Source: a virus (Duplodnaviria; Heunggongvirae; Uroviricota; Caudoviricetes). From it: a DNA stretch of 25,897 nt. This document shows, one piece after another, positions 7,493 through 25,286 of this stretch. Under the pieces are notes generated by a model that worked only from the letters and a program-made list of their open reading frames with translations, did not search any database and was not told the origin of the DNA. Each line of letters starts with the position of its first letter. Within the stretch, counting starts at the first letter, position 1. The position numbers and the translations under genes are program-made. The stretch lies in the IMG/VR virus record IMGVR_UViG_2698536403_000009, one strand, 5' to 3'.

Positions 7493-7528
7493 AGTCAGTG
7501 CTGACCATCAATATGAGGTTTTAACAAA

Positions 7529-8962: not shown

Positions 8963-8970
8963 TCCGTGAG

Positions 8971-8999: not shown

Positions 9000-9013
9000 C
9001 ACAGGAGGCTGAG

Positions 9014-9397
9014 ATGGCAACAAAAGAAGAAAATCTGAATCGTCTTCGTCAACTGGCTGGCCTGCTGGGGCGCGAGGCGGATATGTCGGGGAGTGCTGCG
9101 GATATTGCTCAACGTGTGTCTGAGTGGGAAGAGGAGCTTGCTGTTTCCCCGGAGGGCATTATGCACTCTGATGAGAGCGGGGCTGATCAAAATCACACAG
9201 ACGATGGTGAGCAGTTGAACAACACGGATGCTCCGGATGATGTTAAAGCCGTCCGGGTACGGAAGTGCCTGCAAGTAATGGGGTATTGCCCGGAGACAGG
9301 TCGTCCCGTTGAGCTGGCGTTACGGGGTATGCGTGTTCTGGTGCCATCATCACTGGCAACGGCCATGATACAGCACGGAACGGCTGAATATGCGTGA
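9014..9397 (+). CDS. FI: DNA packaging protein FI
   Basis: Start ATG 9014 after AGGAGG; acidic middle region and position between E and FII as in lambda; weaker sequence match than neighbours. Confidence 0.8.
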   Translation: MATKEENLNRLRQLAGLLGREADMSGSAADIAQRVSEWEEELAVSPEGIMHSDESGADQNHTDDGEQLNNTDAPDDVKAVRVRKCLQVMGYCPETGRPVELALRGMRVLVPSSLATAMIQHGTAEYA

Positions 9398-9743
9398 TTT
9401 TCAGAATGCCTTTGATGCTGCCCTTGCCGGGGTGGACAGTACGATCGTTGAAGTGATGGGGATCCGTGCGCAGTTCACCTCCGGAGCACAACGTGGCGGC
9501 GAAGTTCAGGGGGTTTTTGACGATCCGGAGTCGCTGGGTTTTGCCGGTGGCGGGGTCCGTATTGAAGGAAGCAGCCCGTCATTATTTGTGCGGACGGATA
9601 CGGTGCGTGCCGTGCGGCGTGGTGACACGCTGACCATTAACGGCGAGATGTTCTGGGTGGATCGTGTTTCTCCGGATGACAGGGGAAGCTGTTATCTCTG
9701 GCTCAACCGTGGGCAACCCCCCGCAGTTAACCGGCGACGATAA
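9390..9743 (+). CDS. FII: Head-tail joining protein FII
   Basis: 117 aa; GVFDDPE...GSSPSLFVRTD.VR..RRGDTLTI....FWVDRVSPDD.GSC.LWL.RG.PPAVNRRR matches lambda gpFII. Confidence 0.9.
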   Translation: MRDFQNAFDAALAGVDSTIVEVMGIRAQFTSGAQRGGEVQGVFDDPESLGFAGGGVRIEGSSPSLFVRTDTVRAVRRGDTLTINGEMFWVDRVSPDDRGSCYLWLNRGQPPAVNRRR

Positions 9744-9758
9744 ACGCAGGGTGAAATT

Positions 9759-10334
9759 ATGGCGATAAAAGGGCTTGCTCAGGCGATTGATAATCTGAGC
9801 CGGGTTCGTAAAAACGCCATTCCGGCGGCTTCAGCAATGACGATTAACCGCGTGGCCACAACGGCGATTAATCAGTCTTCATCACAGGTTGCCCGGGAAA
9901 CCAGGGTGAGACGGAAACTGGTAAAGGAACGGTCCAGACTGAAACGGGCCACGGTCAGAAATCCGAATGCAAAAATTATCGTTAACCGCGGTGATCTTCC
10001 TGTGATTAAGCTGGGGATCAGAATGCTGGGGCGTCGTCCGGACAGCATACTCAAAGCCGGTCAGCATCGTTATCAGCGGGCATTTATCCAGCGATTAAAT
10101 AATGGGCGCTGGCATGTTATGCAACGTCTTCCCCAGGCCAGATATGAGAAGGGCAATGACGACAAGGGCAGGAAAAAGCGTAATCGCCTTCCTATTCAGG
10201 TGGTGAAAATCCCGATGGCGGCCCCACTGAAACAGGCGTTTGATGAAAACGTTGACCGTATCCGGCGTGAACGTCTGCCCGGAGAACTGGCATACGCGCT
10301 GAAACAACAGCTGAGGATTGCGATAAAACGATGA
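9759..10334 (+). CDS. Z: Minor tail protein Z
   Basis: 191 aa; MAIKGL.QA..NLSR...INRVA...VARET.VRRKLVKER.RLKRATV...GRWHVMQR...IPMA.PL...RIRRERLP.EL.YAL matches lambda gpZ. Confidence 0.9.
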   Translation: MAIKGLAQAIDNLSRVRKNAIPAASAMTINRVATTAINQSSSQVARETRVRRKLVKERSRLKRATVRNPNAKIIVNRGDLPVIKLGIRMLGRRPDSILKAGQHRYQRAFIQRLNNGRWHVMQRLPQARYEKGNDDKGRKKRNRLPIQVVKIPMAAPLKQAFDENVDRIRRERLPGELAYALKQQLRIAIKR

Positions 10335-10726
10335 AACATACTGATATCCGTGCGGCAGTGCTGGATGCACTCGAGCAGCATGAACACGGGGCGACGCTGT
10401 TTGATGGTCGCCCCGTTGTTTTTGACGAAGAGGATTTTCCTGCGATCGCGGTTTATCTGACGGATGCAGAGTATACCGGTGAAGAGCTGGATGCAGATAC
10501 CTGGCGGGCCACACTGCATATTGAGGTGTTTTTACCGGCACAGGTACCGGATTCGGAGCTGGATTCGTGGATGGAAAGCCGGATTTATCCGGCGATGACC
10601 GCGATCCCGGCACTGGCAGGACTGATTACCACGATGGTTACGCAGGGCTATGAGTATCGTCGTGATGACGATATGGCGTTATGGAGTTCTGCAGATCTGA
10701 CTTATTCCATTACATACGAGATGTGA
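10331..10726 (+). CDS. U: Minor tail protein U (tail terminator)
   Basis: 131 aa, nearly colinear with lambda gpU ([44 protein letters not shown]). Confidence 0.9.
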
Positions 10727-10733
10727 GGACGAT

Positions 10734-11486
10734 ATGGCAACACCAAATCCCCTTGAGCCGGTAAAAGGTGCCGGTACCACTCTGTGGGTTTATAACGGCA
10801 AGGGTGACGCCTATGCAAACCCGTTGTCAGACGATGACTGGCAGCGACTGGCTAAGGTGAAGGATCTGACGCCGGGCGAGATGACGGCAGAATCCTACGA
10901 TGATAACTATCTGGATGATGAAGACGCGGACTGGACCGCGACCGGGCAGGGTCAGAAATCTGCGGGTGACACCAGTTTTACGCTGGCCTGGAAGCCGGGA
11001 GAGGAAGGTCAGAAAGGGCTTATAGGCTGGTTTGAAAGCGGGGATGTGCGGGCCTATAAAATCCGTTTTCCGAACGGCACGGTGGATGTGTTTCGTGGCT
11101 GGGTCAGCAGTATCGGTAAGGCCGTGACGGCGAAAGAAGTGATCACCCGCACGGTGAAAGTGACCAACGTGGGCAAACCTTCTGTAGCGGAAGAACGCAG
11201 CAAAATTACGCCGGTCACTGCGATTAAGGTGACGCCGACATCCGGTACGGTGGCAAAAGGGAAAACAACCACCCTGACGGTTTCTTTTGAGCCGGAAAGT
11301 GCAACCGACAAGACGTTCAGAGCGGTTTCCGCCGATCCGTCGAAAGCCACCATTAGTGTGAAAGATATGACAATTACGGTAAACGGCGTGGCGACAGGTA
11401 AGGTGCAGATCCCTGTGGTGAGCGGAAATGGTCAGTTCGCCGCAGTGGCTGAAGTCACCGTTACTGAAGCGGGCGCTGCAGGGTAA
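10734..11486 (+). CDS. V: Major tail protein V
   Basis: 250 aa; [71 protein letters not shown] matches lambda gpV. Confidence 0.95.
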
Positions 11487-11499
11487 ACGGAGGTCATAC

Positions 11500-11931
11500 A
11501 TGTTTCTGAAAACAGAACAATTTGAATATAACGGTGTGTCCGTCACGCTTTCCGAATTGTCTGCGCTGCAGCGTATTGAGCATCTTGCCCTCCTGAAACG
11601 GCGTGCAGAACAGGCAGAATCCAGCGGCAACCTGCAGGTAAGCGTGGAAGATCTCGTCAGAACCGGCGCGTTTCTGGTGGCGATGTCCCTGTGGCATAAC
11701 CATCCGCAGAAAACGGGGTCACCGTCAATGAATGAGGCTGTGATGCAGATTGAGCAGGAAGTCCTGACCACCTGGCCTGCGGATGCCATTGCCCGGGCGG
11801 AAAATGTGGTGTTGCGTCTGTCCGGGATGAGCGGGCCTGTTCATGTGGATACGGATATTACCGAAGTGGCGAAAAATAACGCGCTGACTGATGATGATTT
11901 TTCTGCGGGAAAGTCTTCGACGGCGAGCTGA
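11500..11931 (+). CDS. G: Tail assembly chaperone G
   Basis: Start ATG 11500 after ACGGAGG; MFLKTE.FE.NGV.VTLSELSALQRIEHLAL.KR.AEQAES matches lambda gpG; the track ORF 11428 extends upstream into V. Confidence 0.9.
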   Translation: MFLKTEQFEYNGVSVTLSELSALQRIEHLALLKRRAEQAESSGNLQVSVEDLVRTGAFLVAMSLWHNHPQKTGSPSMNEAVMQIEQEVLTTWPADAIARAENVVLRLSGMSGPVHVDTDITEVAKNNALTDDDFSAGKSSTAS

Positions 11932-12371
11932 ATTTTGCCCTCAGACTGGCGCGTGAGATGGGGAGGCCTGACTGGCGCGCCATGCTTGCCGGGATGACAT
12001 CCACCGAATATGCCGACTGGCGACATTTTTACCGCATGCATTATTTTCACGATACCCAGCTGGATATGCATTTTTCCGGGCTGACGTACGCTGTACTCAG
12101 CCTGTTTTTTTGCGATCCGGATATGCATCCCTCTGATTTCAGTCTGCTTGCCCCCCGGCGTGAGGAAGCGCAGACGGAGATGCCGGATGAGGAAAAAATG
12201 CTGATGCAGAAAGCGGCAGGACTTGCCGGAGGCGTCCGGTTTGGTGGGGACGGAGGGCGTGAGATTTTATCGTCTGCGGATGTGGCGGATGTCAGCGAGG
12301 ATGATGTCGCATTAATGATGGCTTCAGCGGGGATTTCCGGAGGTGTGAGATATGTCCCAGCCGGTTGGTGA
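11500..12371 (+). CDS. T: Tail assembly protein G-T fusion produced by programmed -1 ribosomal frameshift (T-frame part 11910-12371)
   Basis: Slippery heptamer G_GGA_AAG at 11907-11913 in the G frame, the same site as lambda G-T; the -1 frame downstream encodes KVFDGEL.FAL.LAREMGRPDWRAMLAGM.STEYADW similar to lambda gpT. Confidence 0.8.
11907..11913 (+). promoter_or_regulatory. G-T -1 frameshift slippery site (GGGAAAG)
   Basis: X_XXY_YYZ heptamer in G frame, followed in the -1 frame by a T homolog. Confidence 0.8.
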
Positions 12372-14931
12372 TCTTGTTATTGACCTGAGTCTGGATGCGG
12401 TCCGTTTCGATGAGCAGATGAGCCGGGTAAGGCGTCATTTTTCCGGACTGGAGACTGACGCCAGAAAAACCGCCAGTGCTGTTGAACAGGGCCTGAGCCG
12501 CCAGGCGTTGGCTGCACAAAAAGCCGGGATTTCCGTCGGGCAGTATAAAGCGGCCATGCGAACCCTGCCCGCACAGTTTACGGATATCGCCACGCAGCTT
12601 GCCGGTGGTCAGAATCCCTGGCTGATCCTGCTGCAACAGGGCGGTCAGGTGAAGGACTCCTTCGGCGGGATGATCCCCATGTTCAGGGGACTTGCCGGTG
12701 CGATCACCCTGCCGATGGTCGGGGTCACCTCGCTGGCGGTGGCGACAGGTGCGCTGGCGTACGCCTGGTACCAGGGGGATTCCACGCTTTCAGCGTTTAA
12801 TAAAACCCTGGTTCTTTCCGGTAATCAGTCCGGACTGACTGCCGATCGCATGCTGACGCTCTCCAGAGCCGGACAGGCCGCAGGGCTGACGTTTAACCAG
12901 GCGAGTGAGTCACTGGCAGCCCTGGTGAATGTCGGTGTGCGTGGTGGTGAACAGTTTGATGCCATCAACCAGAGTGTCGCGCGTTTTGCTTCTGCATCCG
13001 GTGTGGAGGTGGACAAGGTTGCAGAGGCTTTCGGAAAACTGACCACCGACCCGACGTCGGGGCTGATGGCGATGGCGCGCCAGTTCCGTAACGTGACGGC
13101 AGAGCAGATTGCGTATGTTGCGCAGCTGCAGCGTTCCGGTGATGAGGCCGGGGCCTTACAGGCGGCGAACGATGCTGCCACGAAAGGCTTTGATGAGCAG
13201 ACCCGTCGCCTGAAAGAAAACATGGGGACACTGGAGACCTGGGCGGATAAAACAGGGAAGGCATTCAAATCGATGTGGGATGCCATTCTGGATATCGGTC
13301 GTCCTGAGTCCTCAGCGGATATGCTCGCCAGTGCACAGAAGGCATTTGATGAGGCGGATAAAAAATGGCAGTGGTACCAGAGCCGGAGCCAGCGCCGGGG
13401 AAAAACCGCCTCTTTTCGTGCGAACCTTCAGGGTGCATGGGATGACCGGGAAAATGCCCGTCTGGGGCTGGCAGCGGCCACGCTGCAGTCGGATATGGAA
13501 AAAGCCGGTGAACTGGCCGCCAGGGACCGGGCCGAACGGGACGCATCACAGCTGAAGTATACCGGAGAGGCGCAGAAGGCGTATGAGCGTCTGCTGACGC
13601 CGCTGGAGAAATATACCGCCCGTCAGGAAGAACTGAATAAGGCCCTGAAAGACGGGAAAATCCTGCAGGTGGATTACAACACGCTGATGGCGGCGGCGAA
13701 AAAGGATTATGAATCGACGCTGAAAAAGCCGAAGTCGTCAGGAGTCAAAGTGTCAGCCGGTGAGCGCCAGGAAGACCGGGCACATGCTGCCCTGCTGGCG
13801 CTTGAAACTGAGCTCCGGACGCTGGAAAAACACAGCGGTGCGAATGAGAAAATCAGCCAGCAGCGTCGCGATTTATGGAAAGCGGAAAATCAGTATGCGG
13901 TCCTGAAAGAGGCAGCCACGAAACGGCAGTTATCTGAGCAGGAAAAATCCCTGCTGACCCATGAGAAAGAGACGCTGGAGTACAAACGCCAGCTGGCTGA
14001 GCTGGGAGACAAAGTTGAACACCAGAAACGGCTGAATGAGCTGGCACAGCAGGCTGCGCGGTTTGAACAGCAGCAGAGTGCGAAGCAGGCGGCAATCAGC
14101 GCAAAAGCCCGCGGACTCACCGACCGTCAGGCGCAGCGGGAGTCGGAAGAGCAGCGCCTTCGTGACGTGTACGGTGATAATCCGGATGCGCTGGCGAAGG
14201 CCACATCTGCACTGAAGAACACCTGGTCTGCGGAGGAGCAGCTTCGTGGAAGCTGGATGGCCGGTCTGAAGTCCGGCTGGGGCGAGTGGGCAGAAAGTGC
14301 GACGGACAGTTTTTCGCAGGTTAAAAACGCGGCCACGCAGACCTTTGACGGTATTGCACAGAATATGGCGGGGATGCTGACCGGCAGCGAACAGAACTGG
14401 CGTGGTTTCACCCGTTCCGTGCTCTCCATGCTGACAGAGATTTTTCTGAAGCAGGCCATGGTGGGGATTGTCGGGAGTATTGGCAGCGCCATGGGTGGTG
14501 CTTTCGGTGGTGGGGCGTCTGCCTCCACGGGGACGGCCATTCAGGCTGCGGCGGCGAACTTCCATTTTGCGACCGGAGGATTTACGGGAACCGGTGGCAA
14601 ATATGAGCCAGCGGGGATTGTTCACCGTGGTGAATTTGTCTTCACGAAGGAGGCAACCAGCCGGATTGGCGTAGGAAATCTTTACCGGCTGATGCGCGGC
14701 TATGCCACCGGTGGTTATGTCGGTGGCACCGGAAGTCCGGCGCAGATGCGGCGTTCAGAGGGTATCAGATTTGAGCAGAACAACAACGTGGTGATTCAGA
14801 ACGACGGTATCAACGGACAGGCGGGGCCGCAGCTGATGAAGGCGGTGTATGACATGGCCCGCAAGGGGGCACAGGATGAACTCCGGCTGCAGTTGCGTGA
14901 TGGCGGTATGTTATCAGGGAGCGGTGGATGA
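12352..14931 (+). CDS. H: Tail tape measure protein H
   Basis: 859 aa, colinear with lambda gpH (N-term PVGDLV.DLSLDA.RFDEQM.RVRRHFSG; C-term KYEPAGIVHRGEFVFTKEATSRIGVGNLYRLMRGYATGGYVG). Confidence 0.95.
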   Translation: MSQPVGDLVIDLSLDAVRFDEQMSRVRRHFSGLETDARKTASAVEQGLSRQALAAQKAGISVGQYKAAMRTLPAQFTDIATQLAGGQNPWLILLQQGGQVKDSFGGMIPMFRGLAGAITLPMVGVTSLAVATGALAYAWYQGDSTLSAFNKTLVLSGNQSGLTADRMLTLSRAGQAAGLTFNQASESLAALVNVGVRGGEQFDAINQSVARFASASGVEVDKVAEAFGKLTTDPTSGLMAMARQFRNVTAEQIAYVAQLQRSGDEAGALQAANDAATKGFDEQTRRLKENMGTLETWADKTGKAFKSMWDAILDIGRPESSADMLASAQKAFDEADKKWQWYQSRSQRRGKTASFRANLQGAWDDRENARLGLAAATLQSDMEKAGELAARDRAERDASQLKYTGEAQKAYERLLTPLEKYTARQEELNKALKDGKILQVDYNTLMAAAKKDYESTLKKPKSSGVKVSAGERQEDRAHAALLALETELRTLEKHSGANEKISQQRRDLWKAENQYAVLKEAATKRQLSEQEKSLLTHEKETLEYKRQLAELGDKVEHQKRLNELAQQAARFEQQQSAKQAAISAKARGLTDRQAQRESEEQRLRDVYGDNPDALAKATSALKNTWSAEEQLRGSWMAGLKSGWGEWAESATDSFSQVKNAATQTFDGIAQNMAGMLTGSEQNWRGFTRSVLSMLTEIFLKQAMVGIVGSIGSAMGGAFGGGASASTGTAIQAAAANFHFATGGFTGTGGKYEPAGIVHRGEFVFTKEATSRIGVGNLYRLMRGYATGGYVGGTGSPAQMRRSEGIRFEQNNNVVIQNDGINGQAGPQLMKAVYDMARKGAQDELRLQLRDGGMLSGSGG

Positions 14932-15257
14932 AAACCTTTCGCTGGAAAGTGAAGCCGGATATGGAGGTGAACTCGCAGCCGTCGGTGCGTGAAGTGCGTT
15001 TTGGTGACGGGTACTCACAGCGTATGGCGGCAGGGCTGAATGCTGACCTGAAAACATACAGGGTGACGCTTTTCGTGACCCGGGAGGAGGCCCGGCATCT
15101 GGAAGCGTTCCTGGCAGAGCACGGTGGCTGGAAGGCATTTTTGTGGAAGCCACCCTATGCATACCGGCAGATAAAGGTGACCTGTGCCGGGTGGTCTGCG
15201 CGGGTCGGGATGTTGCGCGTTGAGTTCAGCGCGGAGTTTAAGCAGGTGGTGAACTGA
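14928..15257 (+). CDS. M: Minor tail protein M
   Basis: 109 aa, position and size as lambda gpM; ATGA overlap with H. Confidence 0.9.
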   Translation: MKTFRWKVKPDMEVNSQPSVREVRFGDGYSQRMAAGLNADLKTYRVTLFVTREEARHLEAFLAEHGGWKAFLWKPPYAYRQIKVTCAGWSARVGMLRVEFSAEFKQVVN

Positions 15258-15955
15258 TGCAGGATATTCACGAAGAAAGCCTGAACGAGTCGGTTAAATC
15301 AGAGCAGTCACCGCGGGTGGTGCTCTGGGAAATTGACCTGACGGTGCAGGGTGGTGAGCGGTATTTTTTCTGCAATGAGCTGAATGAAAAAGGGGAGGCG
15401 GTTACCTGGCAGGGGCGGCAATATCAGGCATACCCGATTGACGGCAGTGGCTTTGAGATGAACGGGAAGGGCAGCAGTGCCCGCCCGTCGCTGACGGTGT
15501 CGAATCTGTTCGGTCTGGTCACCGGGATGGCGGAGGACCTGCAGAGCCTGGTGGGGGCCACGGTGGTCCGCCGCCGGGTGTATGCCCGTTTTCTGGATGC
15601 GGTGAATTTTGTGGCGGGCAATCCGGAAGCGGACCCGGAGCAGGAGCTGAGCGACCGCTGGGTGGTGGAGCAGATGTCAGAGCTGACGGCCATGACAGCC
15701 TCGTTTGTGCTGGCAACACCGACGGAGACGGACGGAGCGCTGTTTCCCGGTCGCATTATGCTGGCGAATACCTGTATGTGGACCTACCGCTCTGATGAGT
15801 GTGGTTACACGGGCGGGGCTGTGGCGGATGAGTTCGATAAACCCACCACCGATATCCGTAAGGACAGATGCAGCAAGTGCATGCGCGGGTGTGAGATGCG
15901 CGGCATGGTGGCTAATTTTGGCGGTTTCCTTTCCATTAATAAACTTTCGCAGTAA
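15257..15955 (+). CDS. L: Minor tail protein L
   Basis: 232 aa, same size as lambda gpL; C-terminal Cys cluster (CMWTYRSDECGYTGG...CSKCMRGC) typical of gpL. Confidence 0.9.
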   Translation: MQDIHEESLNESVKSEQSPRVVLWEIDLTVQGGERYFFCNELNEKGEAVTWQGRQYQAYPIDGSGFEMNGKGSSARPSLTVSNLFGLVTGMAEDLQSLVGATVVRRRVYARFLDAVNFVAGNPEADPEQELSDRWVVEQMSELTAMTASFVLATPTETDGALFPGRIMLANTCMWTYRSDECGYTGGAVADEFDKPTTDIRKDRCSKCMRGCEMRGMVANFGGFLSINKLSQ

Positions 15956-15965
15956 ATCCCGGTTT

Positions 15966-16709
15966 ATGACACAGACTGAATCAGCGATTCTGGCGCATGC
16001 CCGGCGGTGTGCGCCTGCGGAGTCGTGCGGCTTCGTGGTGAGAACGCCGGAGGGGGAGCGGTATATCCCTTGTGTGAATATCTCTGCAGAGCCGGAGGCG
16101 TATTTTCGTATTGCACCGGAAGACTGGCTGCGGGCAGAGATGCAGGGGGAGATTGTGGCACTGGTCCACAGTCATCCCGGTGGTCTGCCCTGGCTGAGCG
16201 AGGCCGACCGGCGGCTGCAGATAAAAAGTGCACTGTCCTGGTGGCTGGTCTGCCGGGGGGAAATTCATAAATTCCGCTGTGTGCCACATCTGACAGGACG
16301 GCGCTTTGAGCACGGGGTGACGGACTGTTACACGCTGTTCCGGGATGCCTACCATCTGGCGGGAATTGATATGCCGGATTTTGAGCGTGAGGATGACTGG
16401 TGGCGCAACGGTCAGAACCTTTACCTGGACAATATGGCGGTCACCGGCTTTTACCGGGTGCCCCTGTCCTCTGCACAGGCGGGCGATATCCTGCTGTGCT
16501 GCTTTGGCGCATCGGTGGCCAATCATGCCGCCATTTACTGCGGCAACGGTGAACTGCTTCACCATCTGCCTGAACAACTGAGTAAACGGGAGAGGTATTC
16601 CGAAAAATGGCAACGACGAACGCATTCTGTCTGGCGTCACCGCCACTGGCACGCATCTGCCTTCACGGGGATTTACAACGATTTGGCCGCCGCCTCAGCC
16701 TGTATGTGA
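15966..16709 (+). CDS. K: Tail assembly protein K
   Basis: Start ATG 15966 (MTQTESAILAHARRCAPAESCGFVV, nearly identical to lambda gpK N-terminus); the track ORF 15705 is an upstream extension overlapping L. Confidence 0.9.
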   Translation: MTQTESAILAHARRCAPAESCGFVVRTPEGERYIPCVNISAEPEAYFRIAPEDWLRAEMQGEIVALVHSHPGGLPWLSEADRRLQIKSALSWWLVCRGEIHKFRCVPHLTGRRFEHGVTDCYTLFRDAYHLAGIDMPDFEREDDWWRNGQNLYLDNMAVTGFYRVPLSSAQAGDILLCCFGASVANHAAIYCGNGELLHHLPEQLSKRERYSEKWQRRTHSVWRHRHWHASAFTGIYNDLAAASACM

Positions 16710-17287
16710 ACACGGCAGCGGAAGCCATCCGGGCGCTGTCGTTACAGGTGCCCGGATTTCGCCGTCAGATGAACGAAGGGTGGTACCAGATACGTATTGC
16801 CGGTGATGACACGGCACCGGAGGCGGTGTACGCCCGTCTTCACGAACAGCTGGGTGAGGGAACGGTCATCCACATTGTGCCGCGACTGGCCGGGGCCGGA
16901 AAGGGTGGACTGCAGATTGTGCTGGGGGCGGCAGCCATCGTGGGGTCGTTCTTCACTGCCGGAGGCTCGATGGCGTTATGGGGTACAGCCCTGAGTGCCG
17001 GTGGTTTTTCTGCCACCACGATGCTGTTTTCACTGGGTGCCAGTATGATTCTGGGCGGTGTGGCCCAGATGCTGGCCCCGAAGGCAAAAACACCGGATTA
17101 CCGCGCAACGGATAACGGCAGACAGAACACGTATTTTTCGTCACTGGACAACATGATTGCCCAGGGTAACCCGATGCCGGTGCCTTACGGGGAAATGCTG
17201 GTTGGCTCCCGCCGTATATCCCAGGACATCAGCACCCGTGATGAAGGCGGGGGCGGAACGGTCGTGGTTATCGGGCGACAGGGATAA
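16607..17287 (+). CDS. I: Tail assembly protein I
   Basis: 226 aa; ARICL.GDLQRFGRR, IHIVPR.AGA..GG, NTYFSSLDNM.AQGN as lambda gpI; overlaps K by ~100 bp as in lambda. Confidence 0.9.
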   Translation: MATTNAFCLASPPLARICLHGDLQRFGRRLSLYVNTAAEAIRALSLQVPGFRRQMNEGWYQIRIAGDDTAPEAVYARLHEQLGEGTVIHIVPRLAGAGKGGLQIVLGAAAIVGSFFTAGGSMALWGTALSAGGFSATTMLFSLGASMILGGVAQMLAPKAKTPDYRATDNGRQNTYFSSLDNMIAQGNPMPVPYGEMLVGSRRISQDISTRDEGGGGTVVVIGRQG

Positions 17288-17291
17288 AACA

Positions 17292-17326
17292 TAAAAAAAT
17301 CCCGCAGTGATCGCGGAGCTGCGGGG
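17292..17326 (-). terminator. Intrinsic terminator oriented for the minus strand
   Basis: Stem cccgcag/ctgcggg (17301-17307 / 17319-17325), 11-nt loop; on the minus strand the hairpin is followed by atttttttat (plus 17291-17300). Confidence 0.5.
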
Positions 17327-17390
17327 ACAGACAAATGAAGATCAATGTTAAGGAGTTGTTTTTGTTACTCGGGCAAAAAAACACTAACGC
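17292..17390 (-). ncRNA. Candidate small RNA (~100 nt) in the I-J intergenic insert
   Basis: Sigma70-like promoter on the minus strand (-35 TTCACA = plus 17419-17424; 16-bp spacer; -10 TATAAT = plus 17397-17402) followed ~100 nt downstream by the intrinsic terminator at 17292-17326; no plausible ORF on that strand. Confidence 0.3.
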
Positions 17391-17396
17391 AGCGAA

Positions 17397-17424
17397 ATTA
17401 TAAGCGCCACAGTCAGTGTGTGAA
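17397..17424 (-). promoter_or_regulatory. Putative sigma70 promoter (TTCACA-16-TATAAT) on the minus strand
   Basis: Perfect -10 hexamer, 5/6 match at -35, 16-bp spacer; lies in the AT-rich insert between I and J. Confidence 0.35.
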
Positions 17425-17496
17425 AATGTGAAGATATTCAGAATTTTTATGCCATTACCGGTTTTAACCAACAGGATTATCGGTGGGCATGAAAGA

Positions 17497-17530
17497 AAAC
17501 CCCGGTATCTGCTGATACCGGGGTTTCTCT
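17497..17530. terminator. Perfect 13-bp inverted repeat hairpin with U-rich flanks on both strands (bidirectional terminator-like)
   Basis: aaaccccggtatc (17497-17509), loop tgct, gataccggggttt (17514-17526); followed on plus by ctcttt and on minus by tctttc. Confidence 0.5.
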
Positions 17531-17629
17531 TTAGCATGGCAGAAATGTGTTTCATGCTTTTCGGGCGAAGGATATCCGACTTCTGTACGGAATGGCAAGT
17601 GGCGGTTAATTTATTCAGGGGAAGGCTGT

Positions 17630-20600
17630 ATGGGAAAAGGTGGCGGTAAGGCACACACGCCTCGTGAGGCGAAGGATAATCTCAAATCCACGCAGATGAT
17701 GAGCGTGATTGATGCGATTGGTGAGGGACCGATAGAAGGCCCGGTGAAAGGCCTGCAGAGTATTCTGGTGAACAAAACCCCGCTGACGGGCACGGACGGT
17801 AATCCCGTGATACACGGTGTGACCGCGGTCTGGCGTGCCGGGGAGCAGGAGCAGACACCACTGGAAGGCTTTGAGTCCTCCGGAGCTGAAACCGGACTGG
17901 GCGTGGAAGTGACGAAGGCAAAGCCGGTAACGCGCACCATTACATCCGCGAACATTGACCGCCTGCGGGTCACCTTCGGGGTGCAGTCACTGTTGGAGAC
18001 CACCTCAAAGGGCGACCGTAATCCCTCTTCTGTCCGGCTGCTGATTCAGTTGCAGCGTAACGGTAACTGGGTGACGGAAAAGGATGTCACCATTAACGGC
18101 AAGACCACCTCACAGTACCTGGCGTCGGTGATTCTGGATAATCTGCCTCCCCGTCCTTTTAACATCCGGATGGTCCGGGAGACAGCGGACAGCACCCCGG
18201 ACCAGCTGCAGAATAAGACGCTCTGGTCGTCATACACCGAAATCATCGATGTGAAACAGTGCTACCCGAACACGGCGATTGTGGGGCTGCAGGTGGATGC
18301 GGAGCAGTTTGGCGGTCAGCAGATGACGGTGAACTACCATATCCGCGGTCGCATCATCCAGGTGCCGTCAAACTATGACCCGGAAAAACGCACTTACAGC
18401 GGCATCTGGGACGGCAGCCTGAAACCGGCATACAGCAATAACCCGGCCTGGTGTCTGTGGGACATGCTGACCCACCCGCGCTACGGAATGGGAAAACGCC
18501 TGGGGGCGGCGGATGTTGACAAGTGGGCGCTGTATGCCATCGGGCAGTACTGCGACCAGACGGTCCCGGATGGTTTCGGGGGCACAGAGCCGCGGATGAC
18601 CTTTAATGCGTACCTGTCACAACAGCGTAAGGCGTGGGACGTTCTCAGTGATTTCTGCTCGGCGATGCGCTGTATGCCGGTATGGAACGGCCAGACGCTG
18701 ACGTTCGTTCAGGACCGCCCGTCGGATGTGGTGTGGCCGTACACCAACTGCGATGTGGTGGTGGATGATAACGGCGTGGGGTTTCGCTACAGCTTCAGCG
18801 CCCTGAAGGACCGCCACACGGCGGTGGAGGTGAATTACACCGACCCGCAGAACGGCTGGCAGACCTCCACGGAACTGGTGGAAGACCCGGAAGCCATACT
18901 GCGCTACGGGCGCAACCTGCTGAAGATGGATGCGTTCGGTTGCACCAGTCGCGGTCAGGCCCACCGTGCCGGGCTGTGGGTGATAAAGACCGGACTGCTG
19001 GAAACGCAGACGGTGGATTTCACGCTCGGGTCACAGGGGCTGCGTCACACACCCGGTGACATTATTGAAATCTGTGATAACGACTATGCCGGGACCCTGA
19101 CCGGCGGACGTGTCCTGTCCATCGATGCCGCCAGCCGCACCCTGACGCTGGACCGTGAGGTGACACTGCCGGAGACCGGTGCCGCCACGGTGAACCTGAT
19201 TAACGGCAGCGGTAAGCCGGTGAGTGTGGACATCGCCGCACACCCCGCGCCGGACCGGATACAGGTCAGTACCCTGCCTGATGGTGTGGAGACATACGGT
19301 GTATGGGGACTCTCCCTGCCGTCACTGCGTCGTCGCCTGTTCCGCTGTGTCTCCATCCGGGAAAACACGGACGGCACCTTTGCCATCACGGCGGTGCAGC
19401 ACGTACCGGAAAAAGAAGCCATCGTGGATAACGGGGCCAGCTTTGAGCCACTGTCCGGTTCGCTGAACAGCGTCATCCCGCCGGCTGTGCAGCACCTGAC
19501 GGTGGAGGTGAGCGCGGCTGACGGTCAGTATCTGGCGCAGGCGAAATGGGACACGCCGCGGGTGGTGAAGGGTGTGCGCTTCAGTCTGCGCCTGACCAAC
19601 GGAAGCGGAGAAGACAGCCGTCTGGTGACCACCGCCATCACTGCGGATACAGAGCATCGTTTCAGTGGTCTGCCGCTCGGGGAATACACCCTGACAGTCA
19701 GGGCAATTAACAGTTATGGCCAGCAGGGGGAACCGGCCACCACCACGTTCAGGATTAATGCACCTGCGGTACCCGCCACGATTGAGCTGACACCGGGCTA
19801 TTTTCAGATAACAGCGGTCCCGCGTCTTGCGGTGTATGACCCGACGGTACAGTTTGAATTCTGGTTCTCCGAAAAACGCATCACGAACACGGCACAGGTG
19901 GAAAAATCTGCCCGTTATCTGGGGACCGGCAGTCAGTGGACTGTCCAGGGGAGCCGGATTAAGCCGGGGACGGATTTCTGGTTTTATGTGCGCAGCGTCA
20001 ATCTGGTGGGCAAGTCTGCGTTTGTGGAAGCCAGCGGGCAGGCCAGTAATGATGGTGAAGGGTATCTGGAAATTTTCCGGGAAAAAATAGGAAAACTGCA
20101 TCTGGCTCAGGGGCTGTGGGAGCTGATAGACAACAGCCAGCTTGCGGATGAGATGGCGGAGATGAAGACCACCATCACCGAAACCCGCAATGAAATCACA
20201 CAGACGGTCAGTAAAACGCTGGAAGACCAGAGCGCCACCATTCAGCAGATACAGCGCGTGCAGAAGGACACAAATGATGACCTTGCTGCACTTTACATGC
20301 TGAAGGTACAGAAAACAAAAAATGGCATACCCTATGTTGCCGGTATTGGAGCGGGGATTGAGGATACTGATGGCCAGCCCCTGAGCAACATACTGCTGCT
20401 GGCTGACCGTATTGCGATGATTAACCCGGAGGACGGCAACACCACGCCGTTATTTGTGGCGCAGGGGAATCAGCTGTTCATGAACGATGTGTTCCTGAAG
20501 CGGCTGTTTGCGGTGAGTATCACCTCGTCCGGCAATCCCCCGACGTTTTCCCTGACGCCGGAGGGCAGGCTGACCGCAAGAAATGCTGATATCAGCGGTA

Positions 20601-21103
20601 ACGTGAATGCGAATTCCGGGACGCTCAACAACGTCACGATTAACGAGAACTGTCGGGTTCTGGGAAAACTGTCCGCGAACCAGATTGAAGGCGATCTCGT
20701 TAAAACAGTGGGCAAAGCTTTCCCCCGGGATTCCCGTGCACCGGAGCGGTGGCCATCAGGGACCATTACCGTCAGGGTTTATGACGATCAGCCGTTTGAC
20801 CGGCAAATTGTTATTCCGGCGGTGGCATTCAGCGGCGCTAAACATGAGAGAGAGCATACTGATATTTACTCCTCATGCCGTCTGATAGTGCGGAAAAACG
20901 GTGCTGAAATTTATAACCGTACCGCGCTGGATAATACGCTGATTTACAGTGGCGTTATTGATATGCCTGCCGGTCATGGTCACATGACGCTGGAGTTTTC
21001 GGTGTCAGCATGGCTGGTAAATAACTGGTATCCCACAGCAAGTATCAGCGATCTGCTGGTTGTGGTGATGAAAAAATCCACAGCAGGTATCAGTATCAGC
21101 TGA
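17630..21103 (+). CDS. J: Tail tip / host specificity protein J
   Basis: 1157 aa, colinear with lambda gpJ ([22 protein letters not shown]...); last ~150 aa differ substantially from lambda. Confidence 0.95.
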
Positions 21104-21121
21104 ATTTTATAACCCAGAACG

Positions 21122-21148
21122 GGCGTCAGAAATGACGCCTTTTTTATT
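21122..21148 (+). terminator. Intrinsic terminator after J
   Basis: Stem ggcgtca/tgacgcc (21122-21128 / 21133-21139), loop gaaa, then ttttttatt. Confidence 0.6.
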
Positions 21149-21169
21149 GCAGAAAAGCGAGAGGTAATT

Positions 21170-21769
21170 ATGCGTAAACTTTATGCAGCCATTTTGTCCG
21201 CAGCCATTTGTCTGACCGTATCCGGTGCGCCTGCATGGGCGTCTGAGCAGCAGGCCACGCTGAGCGCGGGGTATCTTCATGCCCGGACGAACGCTCCCGG
21301 TAGCGATAATCTTAACGGGATTAACGTGAAATACCGTTATGAGTTTACGGACACACTGGGGATGGTGACGTCGTTCAGCTATGCAGGAGACAGGAATCGC
21401 CAGCTGACCCATTACAGCGATACCCGCTGGCATGAAGATTCCGTTCGTAACCGCTGGTTCAGCGTAATGGCGGGGCCGTCTGTGCGCGTGAATGAATGGT
21501 TCAGCGCGTATGCGATGGCGGGTGTGGCTTACAGCCGTGTGTCGACTTTCTCCGGGGATTATCTCCGCGTAACTGACAACAAGGGGAAAACGCACGACGT
21601 GCTGACCGGAAGTGATGACGGTCGCCACAGCGACACCTCTCTGGCGTGGGGAGCTGGCGTGCAGTTTAACCCGACCGAATCCGTGGCCATTGATATTGCT
21701 TATGAAGGCTCCGGCAGTGGCGACTGGCGCACTGACGGTTTCATCGTGGGTGTCGGTTATAAATTCTGA
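21170..21769 (+). CDS. lom: Lom / Ail-family outer membrane beta-barrel protein (moron)
   Basis: 199 aa with signal peptide (MRKLYAAILSAAICLTVSGAPAWA), alternating beta-strand pattern, C-terminal ...GVGYKF; position between J and stf as lambda lom. Confidence 0.9.
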   Translation: MRKLYAAILSAAICLTVSGAPAWASEQQATLSAGYLHARTNAPGSDNLNGINVKYRYEFTDTLGMVTSFSYAGDRNRQLTHYSDTRWHEDSVRNRWFSVMAGPSVRVNEWFSAYAMAGVAYSRVSTFSGDYLRVTDNKGKTHDVLTGSDDGRHSDTSLAWGAGVQFNPTESVAIDIAYEGSGSGDWRTDGFIVGVGYKF

Positions 21770-21795
21770 TTAGCCAGGTAACACAGTGTTATGAC

Positions 21796-21822
21796 AGCCC
21801 GCCGGTTCAGGCGGGCTTTTTT
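21796..21822 (+). terminator. Intrinsic terminator after lom
   Basis: 8-bp stem agcccgcc/ggcgggct (21796-21803 / 21810-21817), loop ggttca, then tttttt. Confidence 0.65.
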
Positions 21823-21833
21823 GTGGGGTGAAT

Positions 21834-22283
21834 ATGGCAGTAAAGATTTCAGGTGTACTGAAAGACGGCACAGGAAAACCGGTACAGAACTGCACAATCC
21901 AGCTGAAAGCAAAACGTAACAGTACCACGGTGGTGGTGAACACGGTGGCCTCTGAAAATCCGGATGAAGCCGGTCGTTACAGCATGGACGTTGAGTACGG
22001 TCAGTACAGCGTCATTCTGTTGGTGGAGGGCTTCCCGCCGTCACATGCCGGGACCATCACCGTGTATGAAGATTCTCAACCCGGTACGCTGAATGATTTT
22101 CTCGGTGCCATGTCGGAGGATGACGTCCGGCCGGAGGCACTGCGTCGTTTTGAACTGATGGTGGAAGAAGCGGCGCGTCACGCTGAGGAGGCGAAGAAGA
22201 ATGCCGGAGAGGCGGAGACGTCCGCGAGGAATGCCGGCATATCAGCCAGTCAGGCATCAATGCGTCGGATGCCATCAGTGTGA
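21834..22283 (+). pseudogene. stf: Side tail fiber stf, N-terminal fragment (~141 codons of stf then 8 junk codons and stop)
   Basis: MAVKISGVLKDGTGKPVQNCTIQLKA.RNSTTVVVNTV.SENPDEAGRYSMDVEYGQYSVIL nearly identical to lambda Stf N-terminus; homology ends at ~22256 where C-derived sequence begins. Confidence 0.8.
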
Positions 22284-23053
22284 TGGCCACGGCGCTGAAC
22301 AGTAATGTCAGAGGAGGCACTATGCCGCAATTAACTGCAACGGAAGCCGCCGTGCAGGAGAACCAGCGAGTGATGGGGATCCTGACATGCCAGGAAGCGA
22401 AAGGACGTGAACAGCTTGCCACGATGCTGGCAGGGCAACAGGGCATGAGCGTTGAACAGGCCCGGGCGATTCTGGCCGCGGCGGCACCGCAGCAGCCGGT
22501 GGCATCCGCGCAGAGTGAAGCCGATCGCATTATGGCGTGTGAAGAAGCGAACGGTCGTGAACAACTGGCAGTTACGCTGGCGGCGATGCCGGAGATGACG
22601 GTGGAAAAAGCCCGCCCGATCCTGGCTGCTTCACCGCAGGCGAATGCCGGACCATCACTCCGTGATCAGATCATGGCCCTGGATGAGGCAAAAGGGGCTG
22701 AGGCGCAGGCTGAACAGCTGGCTGCCTGCCCGGGAATGACCGTGGAGAGCGCCCGGGCTGTGCTGGCTGCGGGATCAGGTAAGGCAGAACCGGTCTCTGC
22801 ATCCACAACCGCCCTGTTTGAACATTTCATGGCGAACCATTCACCGGCTGCGGTCCAGGGGGGCGTGTCACAGGCGTCAGAAGACGGTGATGCGGACGTG
22901 AAAATGCTCATGGCCATGCCATGAAGTCAGTGCTGAACATCAATACGAGGTTTTAACAATATGGTGACGAAAACCATCACTGAACAGCGTGCGGAAGTAC
23001 ATATTTTTGCCGGTAATGATCCGGCTCACACCGCCACAGGCAGCAGCGGGATT
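22256..23053 (+). repeat. Inserted head-gene cassette (third, diverged copy): last ~22 codons of C, complete Nu3-like ORF with RBS, C-D intergenic, first ~31 codons of D
   Basis: Homology to 5016-5815 / 6824-7623 starts at tcaatgcgtcggatgcc (22256) and ends after ggcagcagcgggatt (23053); roughly 3-5% diverged from copies 1 and 2 (my estimate from protein differences and a few DNA mismatches). Confidence 0.8.
22322..22924 (+). CDS. nu3: Nu3-like scaffolding protein (copy 3, diverged), embedded within the stf locus
   Basis: Intact ORF with AGGAGG RBS; about 10 aa substitutions relative to copies 1 and 2. Confidence 0.5.
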   Translation: MPQLTATEAAVQENQRVMGILTCQEAKGREQLATMLAGQQGMSVEQARAILAAAAPQQPVASAQSEADRIMACEEANGREQLAVTLAAMPEMTVEKARPILAASPQANAGPSLRDQIMALDEAKGAEAQAEQLAACPGMTVESARAVLAAGSGKAEPVSASTTALFEHFMANHSPAAVQGGVSQASEDGDADVKMLMAMP

Positions 23054-23392
23054 CCGCAGCGAAGACATCCGAGACGAACGCGAAAGCGTCGGAAACCAGC
23101 GCAGAATCCTCAAAAACGGCTGCCGCATCGTCCGCCAGTTCGGCGGCGTCATCGGCATCATCTGCGTCTGCTTCAAAAGATGAGGCGACCAGACAGGCGT
23201 CAGCAGCGAAGGGCAGCGCCACGACGGCATCCACGAAGGCGACAGAGGCAGCTGGCAGTGCGACGGCGGCAGCTCAGAGCAAAAGTACGGCGGAATCCGC
23301 GGCAACGCGCGCTGAGACAGCGGCAAAACGGGCAGAGGATATTGCATCCGCCGTGGCGCTTGAGGATGCGAGCACGACGAAAAAGGGGATAG
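22961..23392 (+). pseudogene. D' fragment: first ~31 codons of the head decoration gene fused out of frame to stf sequence (Arg-rich junk tail)
   Basis: [31 protein letters not shown] matches D N-terminus; after 23053 the frame reads stf DNA out of frame. Confidence 0.7.
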
Positions 23393-23979
23393 TTCAGCTC
23401 AGCAGTGCGACTAACAGCACTTCCGAGTCACTGGCGGCAACGCCAAAAGCCGTTAAGGCCGCGTATGAGCTGGCTAACGGGAAATACACCGCACAGGATG
23501 CAACGACAGCACAGAAAGGGATAGTTCAGCTTAGCAACGCGACCAACAGCACATCTGAAATGCTGGCGGCAACGCCAAAGTCGGTAAAGGCAGCCTATGA
23601 CCTTGCTACGGGGTCTGCCGGTGATCATACTCATGGTAATGGTATTCGTTGGCCAGGAGGCGGCGGTTCTGCGTTAGCATTTTATGATGGCGGTGGGTTC
23701 ACTTATGTCCAGGATTCACAGTATCAAGTAAGCCCGGGGACTTCTTCCCGTAGATCGTATTATCAACGTATTCAGACACAGTCAGCAGGTGCTCATACCC
23801 ACTCGCTGTCTGGTACTGCAGCAAGTTCTGGCGCACATGCACATACTGTAGGTATTGGTGCGCATACGCACTCCGTTGCGATTGGTTCACATGGACACAC
23901 CATCACCGTTAACGCTGCTGGTAACGCGGAAAACACCGTCAAAAACATCGCATTTAACTATATTGTGAGGCTTGCATAA
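23053..23979 (+). pseudogene. stf: Side tail fiber stf, C-terminal portion (Ala/Ser-rich shaft plus His-rich tip domain); no start codon of its own upstream of GTG 23353
   Basis: Frame 1 from ~23053 encodes ...[41 protein letters not shown]... and C-terminus [61 protein letters not shown], matching the lambda Stf C-terminus. Confidence 0.8.
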
Positions 23980-24563
23980 TGGCATTCAGAATGAGTGAAC
24001 AAGCACGGACCATAAAAATTTATAATCTGCTGGCCGGAACTAATGAATTTATTGGTGAAGGTGACGCATATATTCCGCCTCATACAGGTCTGCCAGCAAA
24101 CAGTACCGATATTGCACCACCAGATATTCCTGCTGGCTTTGTGGCTGTTTTCAACAGTGATGAGGCATCGTGGCATCTCGTTGAAGACCATCGGGGTAAA
24201 ACGGTTTATGACGTAGCGTCAGGGGACGAGTTATTTATTTCTGAACTCGGTCCGTTACCGGAAAATGTTACCTGGTTATCGCCGGAAGGGGAGTTTCAGA
24301 AGTGGAACGGCACAGCCTGGGTGAAGGATACGGAAGCAGAAAAAATGTTCCGGATCCGGGAGGCGGAAGAAACAAAAAACAACCTGATGCAGGTAGCCAG
24401 TGAGCATATTGCGCCGCTTCAGGATGCTGCAGATCTGGAAATTGCAACGGAGGAAGAAACCTCATTGCTGGAAGCCTGGAAAAAGTATCGGGTGTTGCTG
24501 AACCGTGTTGATACATCAACTGCACCTGATATTGAGTGGCCTACGAACCCTGTCAGGGAGTAA
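23979..24563 (+). CDS. tfa: Tail fiber assembly protein Tfa
   Basis: 194 aa, same size as lambda Tfa; TAATG overlap with stf stop; conserved C-terminal [24 protein letters not shown]. Confidence 0.9.
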
Positions 24564-24612: not shown

Positions 24613-24627
24613 GGATGCTATTTTTTC
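24578..24627 (+). terminator. Hairpin with downstream T-run after tfa (weak terminator-like)
   Basis: 10-bp stem ccgcagcacg/cgtgctgcgg (24578-24587 / 24601-24610), 13-nt loop, then ttggatgctattttttcc; overlaps the 3' end of the minus-strand methyltransferase gene. Confidence 0.35.
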
Positions 24628-25286
24628 CCTGAAGCGGAAAACATTACTACAGTACCTTGAACCTTGGTTTTAACATTCTCGAAATGCTCTGAGAGTATAT
24701 GTGTTAAGCCTTCTTCGGAATCTTTTGTGTTTGAAAAGATGCCTTTCTGATTGTAAATGCGCATCAGTTTTTGACCGAAGCTATTGTGCACAACTCCATC
24801 GCCAAGAATTGTGGCTCCGTATAGAGTTCCATCGTCAGTTAAGGCCTGCGCCGCATTGCGTATTACACAGCTTTTTGTAGATATATTTCCAGGCAGGCAG
24901 TGAAGAAGGTAAAACATGGAAATGGAATCAAATTGACCATGTAACGCCGCGGGATAAGGTTCAAAAACATCATGGCTAATTTTATGTTTAATTTTTGATT
25001 CCCCAGCCCTTGTAGATGCCGCGTTCAGGCTAGCTTCGTTCAAATCCATTAAAGATATCAGACTACTCTCAGGTACGTGAGTAAGGTAAAACCCAGTTCC
25101 AACACCAATATCCAGATGGTTGTTACCTACATGTTCCAGAAAGTGTGGAAGAAGGTGTTCCTTTGTAGGACATCCCCATGCAAGCCGATTTGATACTCCC
25201 AAAACCCACCAGTCATAAAGCTTTAGGGTAAGTGGTGTGTAAATTTTAGCCCCATCATCTGTGTTTTTTTTCATTGATTTCACCAT
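24618..25286 (-). CDS. Class I SAM-dependent methyltransferase (moron; substrate unknown). Likely true start at the second Met (25274) which has a GGTGA RBS
   Basis: Minus-strand ORF of 222 aa; glycine-rich motif I LDIGVGTGFY followed by acidic LMDLN (motif II-like) and DSISMFYLLHCLP; lower GC than flanking phage genes. Confidence 0.75.
   Translation of the reverse strand: MVKSMKKNTDDGAKIYTPLTLKLYDWWVLGVSNRLAWGCPTKEHLLPHFLEHVGNNHLDIGVGTGFYLTHVPESSLISLMDLNEASLNAASTRAGESKIKHKISHDVFEPYPAALHGQFDSISMFYLLHCLPGNISTKSCVIRNAAQALTDDGTLYGATILGDGVVHNSFGQKLMRIYNQKGIFSNTKDSEEGLTHILSEHFENVKTKVQGTVVMFSASGKK

What the first reader, a model, noticed from the sequence alone, without database searches (positions are those of the whole stretch)
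21834..23979. Side-tail-fiber gene stf is split by an inserted copy of the C-tail/Nu3/D-head cassette; excising ~796 bp would restore the reading frame
stf runs normally for ~141 codons, then at 22256 switches into sequence homologous to the 3' end of C, a complete Nu3-like ORF with its own RBS (22322-22924), the C-D intergenic region and the first 31 codons of D. At 23053 the sequence returns to stf (Ala/Ser-rich shaft and His-rich tip), but in a different frame and without a start codon. Removing 22257-23052 (junctions ambiguous by 1 bp) would rejoin the stf halves in frame into a ~450-aa Stf. The insert has no transposase or terminal inverted repeats and is 3-5% diverged from the two head-region copies, so it probably comes from a different but related prophage. 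Either this prophage lost side tail fibers by acquiring a scaffold cassette, or the contig is chimeric.
Basis: seen in the sequence. Interest (0 to 1): 0.75.

Follow-up and report, generated by a model that had tools for sequence, protein, structure and literature searches.

The report
Scaffold gap, not an stf insertion
The apparent head-gene cassette inside the tail-fibre gene is an assembly artefact: its left edge is a one-base "N" scaffold gap in the public record, shown as "A" in the window, which joins a full prophage to a separate decayed prophage.

Summary
The sequence is as described. stf codons 1-141 end at 22255/6. A 796-798 bp copy of the C-tail/Nu3/D' region follows (96% identical to the head-region copies). 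From 23053 stf resumes in another frame.

The window is E. coli draft scaffold CYBH01000014.1 (GCA_001285345.1). It differs from that record at two bases only, 6350 and 22256. Both are N in the record and A in the window. These are the two novel joints: stf|C, and the E'|'C joint of the apparent 1.8-kb tandem duplication.

Everything right of 22256 matches a cryptic prophage remnant beside yciE/yciF/trp, seen in at least five other assemblies. There the C gene runs on intact upstream, and D codon ~31 is fused to stf codon ~355 by an old ~15-kb deletion. The 474 bp that precede the "insert" in those remnants sit at window 6351-6824. Both Ns fall on sites that differ between the two prophage alleles.

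The two stf halves are different alleles. They are contiguous in none of 5,426 complete E. coli genomes.

Verdict: not a real insertion, and of low interest. The D'|'stf deletion joint is real but ordinary.

The parts
1..6349 (+). Contig a of the scaffold. It carries the full lambdoid prophage P1 genes Nu1, A, W, B, C/Nu3, D and the first 224 bp of E.
   Evidence: Gene calls and Pfam. It is the P1 allele, with 106 mismatches in 3,291 bp against the remnant allele of L009.
6350..6350 (.). Single-N scaffold gap in the public record, shown as 'A' in the window. It is the joint of the apparent 1,808-bp tandem duplication.
   Evidence: L010 position 6602 = n. It is one of only two differences between the window and the record. 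It corresponds to C position 4542, a G/A difference between P1 and the remnant allele.
6351..7002 (+). 5' end of contig b: a C-gene segment carrying the remnant (P2) allele. Bases 6351-6824 are the true upstream neighbour of 22257.
   Evidence: 100% identical to L006-L009, with the first mismatch at 7003. [6351-6824]+[22257-25897] is 100% identical to a contiguous stretch of L007.
7003..22255 (+). Rest of contig b, P1 allele: Nu3 3' part, D, E, FI, FII, Z, U, V, G/T, H, M, L, K, I, J, lom and the first 141 codons of stf.
   Evidence: 7003-8157 is identical to 5195-6349 of contig a.
21834..22255 (+). stf N-terminal domain (PF08400) of the O157 Sp-prophage allele. Its real continuation is not in the window.
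   Evidence: 100% identical over 22100-22256 in hundreds of genomes (623 records had a best match of at least 99%). Those alleles continue as a 437-aa Stf with unrelated sequence.
22256..22256 (.). Single-N scaffold gap in the public record, shown as 'A' in the window. This is the 'left junction' of the finding.
   Evidence: L004 position 10423 = n. It corresponds to C position 5016/6824, a G/A difference between P1 and the remnant allele.
22257..23052 (+). Start of contig c: the C 3' end, the Nu3 ORF (22322-22924), the spacer and D codons 1-31 of the cryptic remnant prophage P2.
   Evidence: 0-1 differences from L006-L009 and L013, where it is preceded by the rest of C. 99.9% identical to intact prophages in other E. 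coli.
23052..23053 (+). Real deletion joint D'|'stf. D codon ~31 is fused to stf codon ~355 with 'TT' microhomology. About 15 kb is lost (E through J, lom and the stf 5' third).
   Evidence: It lies inside contiguous sequence. The fusion ORF 22961-23392 is found on 8 contigs from other assemblies and on an IMG/VR contig.
23053..23979 (+). stf C-terminal remnant (PF03406 repeats and His-rich tip) with no start codon of its own.
   Evidence: 99.5-100% identical to NZ_CP019005 stf from codon ~355 on.
23979..24563 (+). tfa, the tail fibre assembly gene of the remnant.
   Evidence: PF02413. 100% identical to L001.
24618..25286 (-). SAM-dependent methyltransferase at the right end of the remnant.
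   Evidence: Annotation of L001.

Best explanation
The 'insertion' is a scaffolding and gap-filling artefact in a short-read draft genome that carries two related lambdoid elements.

P1 is a full late region, Nu1 through stf. P2 is a cryptic remnant beside yciE/yciF/trp, with the order ...C-Nu3-D'|'stf-tfa, in which an old ~15-kb deletion fused D codon ~31 to stf codon ~355. P1 and P2 share a C-Nu3-D region that is 96-100% identical.

The scaffold is three contigs joined by two single-N placeholders: a (1-6349), b (6351-22255) and c (22257 onward). Contigs b and c both begin with P2-allele sequence. Each stops leftward exactly at a base that differs between P1 and P2, which is a branch point of the repeat. 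Contig b then crosses from the P2 to the P1 allele inside an 81-bp stretch identical in all copies.

Placing b between a and c creates two illusions: a 1.8-kb tandem duplication, and a head cassette inside stf. The window's 'A' at 6350 and 22256 is a substitute for N.

Shown: the Ns, the identities, the SNP coincidence and the recurrence of P2.
Inferred: the assembler behaviour (SSPACE/GapFiller-type extension stopping at ambiguous bases), and that P1 and P2 are not physically adjacent.
For: 1. The window and the public record differ only at 6350 and 22256, both N in the record.
2. 22256-25897 is 99.97-100% identical to remnants in L006, L007 and L008 (1,221 bp shared with the shorter L009) and in IMG/VR L013. 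All of these have the C gene upstream, not stf.
3. [6351-6824]+[22257-25897] (4,115 bp) is 100% identical to one contiguous stretch of L007, whose base at the N site is A.
4. 6351-7002 is 100% the remnant allele. All 18 differences between copy 1 and copy 2 are sites where copy 2 equals the remnant.
5. Both Ns sit on P1/P2 polymorphic sites (4542 and 5016), and each is followed by a run identical in both alleles (262 bp and 96 bp). With about 3% SNP density, the chance of both coinciding is about 0.001.
6. Neither N-joint exists elsewhere.
   - 0 of 5,426 complete E. coli genomes carry either.
   - The exact fusion ORFs occur only on the source contig.
   - The left-junction pattern is absent from the GTDB representative genomes and from IMG/VR.
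7. The stf halves are different alleles and are never contiguous.
8. GapFiller extends base by base from the gap edges and stops on ambiguous 'allelic' overhangs. Its unclosed gaps lie mainly in repeats (PMC3446322). SSPACE and GapFiller are greedy and can make false joins (PMC5320598).
Against: - I could not see the reads or the rest of the assembly, so the true neighbour of stf codon 141 and the read-pair links that made the scaffolder join b to c are unknown.
- I could not confirm which assembler produced GCA_001285345.1 (one search found no paper).
- A scaffolder normally needs several read pairs to join b's 3' end to c. Some real proximity or sequence sharing is therefore not excluded, for example a P1 stf shaft resembling the remnant's 'stf.
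- No complete genome carries the P2 remnant, so there is no finished reference for this lineage.
Confidence: 0.92

Rival explanations
1. Real rearrangement hidden behind the N. P1 and the remnant P2 are physically adjacent, for example as tandem prophages at the same site. An illegitimate deletion then fused P1 stf codon ~141 to the 3' end of P2's C gene, and the assembler merely failed to call one base.
For: The scaffolder joined b to c, which normally requires linking read pairs (PMC5320598). The remnant locus is a known lambdoid integration region: a full prophage occupies it in NZ_CP019005.
Against: The N lies exactly on a P1/P2 SNP site, and so does the other N. The 474 bp that precede 22257 in all other remnants are present in this genome too, misplaced at 6351-6824, so P2's C gene is not truncated at that point. 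The junction is found nowhere else. It would also need a second improbable event (the E'|'C joint) with the same properties.
Confidence: 0.05
2. A 796-bp C-tail/Nu3/D' fragment from another prophage inserted into an intact ~450-aa stf, and precise excision would restore the gene.
For: Deleting 22257-23052 gives an open 450-codon frame with a plausible Ala/Ser-rich joint. The fragment is a natural allele, 99.9% identical to other prophages.
Against: - The left joint is an N.
- The right joint pre-exists in remnants that have no stf N-terminus.
- The two halves are different stf alleles, and in the 25 best complete-genome matches they lie 642 bp apart.
- An in-frame result has a 1-in-3 chance and depends on counting the N as one base.
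- There are no terminal repeats, target duplication or transposase.
Confidence: 0.01
3. The single Ns are genuinely ambiguous base calls inside continuous, read-supported sequence from a mixed or heterogeneous culture, so both joints are real.
For: A lone N can in principle be an ambiguity code rather than a gap.
Against: Sequence homology changes completely at each N (E to C, and stf to C). The sequence right of each N is the allele of another element whose true upstream sequence is known. Neither joint is seen in any other dataset.
Confidence: 0.02

Closest known systems
False joins and unclosed one-base gaps from short-read scaffolding and gap filling in repeats (SSPACE/GapFiller-type pipelines; PMC3446322, PMC5320598)
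   Same: Single-N placeholders sit between contigs. Contig ends stop at sites where two repeat copies differ. Redundant sequence lies on both sides of a gap. The affected region is a multi-copy prophage module.
   Different: I could not verify the software used for this assembly. The reason the scaffolder linked the stf end of contig b to contig c is not established.
Cryptic lambdoid prophage remnants of E. coli with internal deletions (e.g. Rac, Qin, e14; from general knowledge)
   Same: The real element here (P2) keeps packaging and head genes plus the stf 3' end and tfa. It lost E through J by one deletion joint with 2-bp microhomology. It is fixed at one chromosomal site (yciE/yciF/trp) in several isolates, and some copies carry a second B'|'C deletion.
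   Different: The specific D'|'stf joint is absent from 5,426 complete genomes. It is a lineage-restricted remnant, not one of the named K-12 elements.
Loss of side tail fibres in laboratory lambda by a frameshift in stf (Hendrix and Duda 1992; recalled from memory, not checked here)
   Different: Nothing here shows that P1's stf is inactivated. Its 3' part is simply missing from the scaffold.

Membership tests
Insertion that disrupts a gene (cassette or mobile element in stf) | Both insert-target junctions are present in continuous sequence | tested here: not met
   The left junction is an N in the source record. Only the right junction is continuous.
Insertion that disrupts a gene (cassette or mobile element in stf) | The flanks are the two halves of one target allele, and the empty site exists in relatives | tested here: not met
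   The flanks are different stf alleles. In the 25 best complete-genome matches the halves lie 642 bp apart, never contiguous.
Insertion that disrupts a gene (cassette or mobile element in stf) | Hallmarks of mobility (terminal repeats, target-site duplication, transposase or integrase) | tested here: not met
   No terminal inverted or direct repeats beyond chance matches. The ORFs are the C tail, Nu3 and D' only.
Scaffolding or assembly artefact | Gap character at the novel joint in the deposited record | tested here: met
   N at record positions equal to window 6350 and 22256. These are the only differences from the window.
Scaffolding or assembly artefact | The sequence beside the gap belongs to another repeat copy whose true neighbour is known and is present elsewhere in the scaffold | tested here: met
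   [6351-6824]+[22257-25897] is 100% identical to a contiguous stretch of L007 (alignment A1).
Scaffolding or assembly artefact | Contig ends coincide with branch points between repeat copies | tested here: met
   Both Ns fall on P1/P2 SNP sites (4542 and 5016). Each is followed by a run identical in both alleles.
Scaffolding or assembly artefact | No read or read pair spans the joint | not testable with these tools
Cryptic prophage remnant with an internal deletion (the D'|'stf joint) | The joint lies in continuous sequence and recurs in independent assemblies at the same chromosomal site | tested here: met
   The fusion ORF is on 8 contigs, including another project and a Logan assembly. All the long ones are followed by tfa, a methyltransferase, yciE/yciF and trp. 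It is also on IMG/VR L013. There are no Ns in L006-L009 or L013.
Lambda-type side tail fibre Stf | N-terminal phage_tail_N domain and C-terminal fibre repeats, followed by tfa | tested here: met
   PF08400 on 21834-22283, PF03406 on 23353-23979 and PF02413 on tfa. However, the two parts come from different elements.

The most novel reading that the evidence does not exclude
The scaffold order is correct and the N hides a real illegitimate joint. An incoming lambdoid phage would then sit next to the old remnant, with a deletion fusing its stf codon ~141 to the remnant's C gene. That would give a composite prophage with three Nu3/D copies and no side tail fibre.
Probability: 0.05. Interest if true: 0.25.

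Novelty: not a real feature. Interest (0 to 1): 0.05.

Why it matters
It matters mainly as a caution. Two striking structural anomalies in this window, a triplicated scaffold/decoration cassette and a split tail-fibre gene, both vanish once one sees that two bases shown as 'A' are N placeholders in the deposited scaffold. Windows cut from draft assemblies should keep or flag gap characters. Any novel junction should be checked against the source record before it is read as biology. The real biology left is routine: a lineage-restricted cryptic lambdoid remnant with a D-to-stf deletion, and a second, apparently complete, lambdoid late region whose stf 3' end is unassembled.

Tried and rejected
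- Looked for the whole structure, the left joint, the right joint and the tandem-duplication joint in 5,426 complete E. coli genomes. None was found.
- Looked for a contiguous 'restored' stf. In the 25 best matches the halves are always 642 bp apart.
- Looked for terminal repeats or a target duplication around the 'insert'. Only chance-level matches were found.
- Tested whether copy 3 might be artificially mutated. It is not: it is 99.9% identical to natural prophages and its differences are biased to third codon positions.
- Considered a real tandem duplication by unequal crossover. Rejected because its joint is an N and its right arm starts with the other element's allele.
- Searched the paper library for the assembly accession to identify the assembler. 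Nothing was found.
- Scanned the GTDB representative genomes for both junctions. There were no hits, which is uninformative for the right junction because that collection has one genome per species.
- Could not retrieve the other contigs of the source assembly, because look-ups are limited to proteins encoded in the window.

Full report
**1. What the window shows**

The window is the late region of a lambdoid prophage: Nu1, A, W, B, C/Nu3, D, E ... H, M, L, K, I, J, lom, stf, tfa.

A self-comparison gives three copies of the C 3' end / Nu3 / D region:
- 4543-6349 and 6351-8157 abut head to tail. They are 1,807 bp long with 18 mismatches.
- 22256-23053 lies inside stf. It is 798 bp long and 96.0% and 95.9% identical to the other two.

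stf opens at 21834 and reads 141 codons to 22256. Then come the last 8 codons of C, a 200-codon Nu3-like ORF (22322-22924), the C-D spacer and about 31 codons of D. From 23053 the Ala/Ser-rich shaft and His-rich tip of Stf continue in frame +1 to 23979. Deleting 22257-23052 gives an open 450-codon frame.

**2. Where the window comes from, and the two hidden Ns**

An exact-protein look-up of the stf-N/C-tail fusion ORF returned one contig only: CYBH01000014.1 of E. coli draft assembly GCA_001285345.1. The look-up flagged that the locus does not translate to the query.

Comparing the record with the window base by base gives exactly two differences, at window 6350 and 22256. Both are 'N' in the record and 'A' in the window.
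- 22256 is the 'left junction' of the finding.
- 6350 is the joint of the apparent tandem duplication.

The deposited sequence is therefore a scaffold of three contigs joined by one-base gap placeholders: a (to 6349), b (6351-22255) and c (22257 onward). Neither novel joint was ever sequenced. The frame arithmetic of the finding counts a gap character as one base.

**3. The right junction is real, but it belongs to another element**

The D'-'stf fusion ORF (22961-23392) is found on 8 contigs. These include GCA_001283665.1 (L006), GCA_001265625.1 (L007, a different project), GCA_001283785.1 (L008) and a Logan assembly of SRR18080539 (L009). The junction 39-mer also hits an IMG/VR contig (L013). 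None of these loci contains an N.

In all of them the context is a decayed prophage: (lysis genes)-A-W-B or B'-C-Nu3-D'|'stf-tfa-methyltransferase, followed by yciE, yciF and the trp operon. There are no tail genes and no stf N-terminus.

Window 22256-25897 is 100% identical to L007 and 99.97% identical to L006, L008 and L013. The joint fuses D codon ~31 to the position of codon ~355 of the intact allele in NZ_CP019005, with 'TT' microhomology. About 15 kb is missing (E through J, lom and the 5' third of stf). This is an ordinary illegitimate deletion in a cryptic prophage, called P2 below. No complete E. coli genome of 5,426 carries it, so it is lineage-restricted.

**4. The sequence that should precede the 'insert' is elsewhere in the same scaffold**

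In L006-L009 the C gene continues upstream of the position of 22257. That upstream sequence is identical to window copy 2 at all 18 sites where copy 1 and copy 2 differ (alignment A1).

- Window 6351-7002 is 100% identical to the remnant allele. The first mismatch is at 7003.
- [6351-6824]+[22257-25897] (4,115 bp) is 100% identical to one contiguous stretch of L007, whose base at the N site is A.

So the 5' end of contig b is really the upstream neighbour of contig c. Contig b then switches from the P2 allele to the allele of the full prophage (P1). The switch falls inside the 81 bp (6922-7002) that are identical in all three copies. From 7003 on, contig b equals contig a (5195-6349) exactly.

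The 'tandem duplication' is therefore two overlapping representations of one locus that were not merged. The 'insert in stf' is the start of the P2 contig placed after the end of the P1 contig.

**5. Both Ns sit on branch points of the repeat**

- Window 6350 corresponds to C position 4542. P1 has G there and the remnant allele has A. The next 262 bp are identical in both alleles.
- Window 22256 corresponds to position 5016/6824, again G in P1 and A in P2. The next 96 bp are identical in both.

With about 3% divergence between the alleles (106 differences in 3,291 bp), the chance that two arbitrary positions both fall on such sites is about 0.001.

This pattern is expected if contig ends were extended leftward until the reads disagreed. 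GapFiller fills gaps one overhang base at a time from each edge. It applies a 0.7 majority rule at 'allelic' positions. It closes a gap only if the two extensions overlap and the length fits. Its open gaps are mainly in repeats, where alternatives have equal ratios (PMC3446322). The Sanger prokaryote pipeline that uses SSPACE and GapFiller states that both are greedy and can make false joins (PMC5320598). That this assembly came from such a pipeline is my inference. I found no paper naming the accession.

**6. The two stf halves never belonged together**

The last 157 bp before the N are 100% identical to the stf of O157-type Sp prophages in hundreds of genomes (623 records had a best match of at least 99%). 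Those alleles continue from the equivalent of 22257 with unrelated sequence (...SQAEENAANADTS...). They encode a ~437-aa Stf plus a small C-terminal-domain protein.

The part from 23053 on is the allele of NZ_CP019005 (99.5-100%). The N-terminal third of that allele is only 88% identical to the window, and only as far as 22183.

A 400-bp query made from the 'restored' joint finds both halves in 288 genomes. In the 25 best matches they are two pieces 642 bp apart. An in-frame result is a 1-in-3 coincidence.

**7. The joints are absent elsewhere**

- No complete E. coli genome holds the whole structure, the E'|'C joint or the stf|C joint.
- The exact fusion ORFs occur only on the source contig.
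- A 38-mer across the left joint, with the N as a wildcard, is absent from the GTDB representative genomes and from IMG/VR.

**8. What remains uncertain**

I could not see the reads or the other contigs of the assembly. Three things therefore stay open:
- where P1 lies on the chromosome;
- how its stf really continues;
- which read pairs led the scaffolder to place c after b.

A real P1-P2 fusion hidden behind the N cannot be formally excluded. It would require P2's C gene to be both truncated at 22257 and present upstream of it in the same genome. It would also require two independent breakpoints to fall on allele-specific SNPs. I give it about 5%.

**9. Verdict**

The feature is not real, and interest is low. 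What is real is an unremarkable, lineage-restricted cryptic prophage with a D-to-stf deletion.

Noticed in passing
window 4543-8157 (joint at 6350): An apparent 1,808-bp tandem duplication of C 3'/Nu3/D/E'. All 18 mismatches lie in 4805-5113. Its joint is the other single N of the public record, and its right arm starts with the remnant prophage's allele. It is the same scaffolding artefact, not a duplication.
   Followed up: yes
window 6922-7002: Contig b changes from the remnant (P2) allele to the full-prophage (P1) allele inside an 81-bp stretch identical in all three copies. The contig itself is therefore chimeric at a short shared repeat.
   Followed up: yes
L006/L007/L008/L013 versus L009 (window-equivalent 2737-4237): Most copies of the remnant carry a second deletion of about 1.5 kb that fuses B' to C. 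The Logan contig L009 has full-length B and C. The remnant therefore exists in at least two stages of decay.
   Followed up: partly
window 23363-23613 and 23606-23612: The stf 3' part has two 132-bp '[23 protein letters not shown]' repeat units (76-80% identical). It lacks about 325 codons present in the otherwise identical allele of NZ_CP019005. The break lies at the end of a repeat unit, which looks like an in-frame repeat-mediated deletion.
   Followed up: partly
window 24398-24612 and 25447-25662: A 216-bp piece of tfa is repeated at 89% identity on the far side of an oppositely oriented methyltransferase gene (24618-25286). In NZ_CP019005 the second copy is annotated as a partial, frameshifted tail fibre assembly pseudogene.
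   Followed up: no
window 24322-24520 (+): Rfam family IS009 (RF02111) matches at 223.8 bits, full length, inside the tfa coding sequence.
   Followed up: no
window 17318-17628: The 311 bp between I and J have no similarity to the sodC moron that occupies this position in an O157-type relative (L011). The segment carries a strong hairpin followed by a T-run (17492-17532). On the minus strand it has an 11/12 promoter-like site (17424-17397) and a terminator-like hairpin (17317-17301).
   Followed up: partly
window 21796-21826: A strong intrinsic-terminator-like hairpin (8 pairs, 7 of them G-C, followed by TTTTTTG) lies between lom and the stf start. stf would therefore need its own promoter or read-through.
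   Followed up: no
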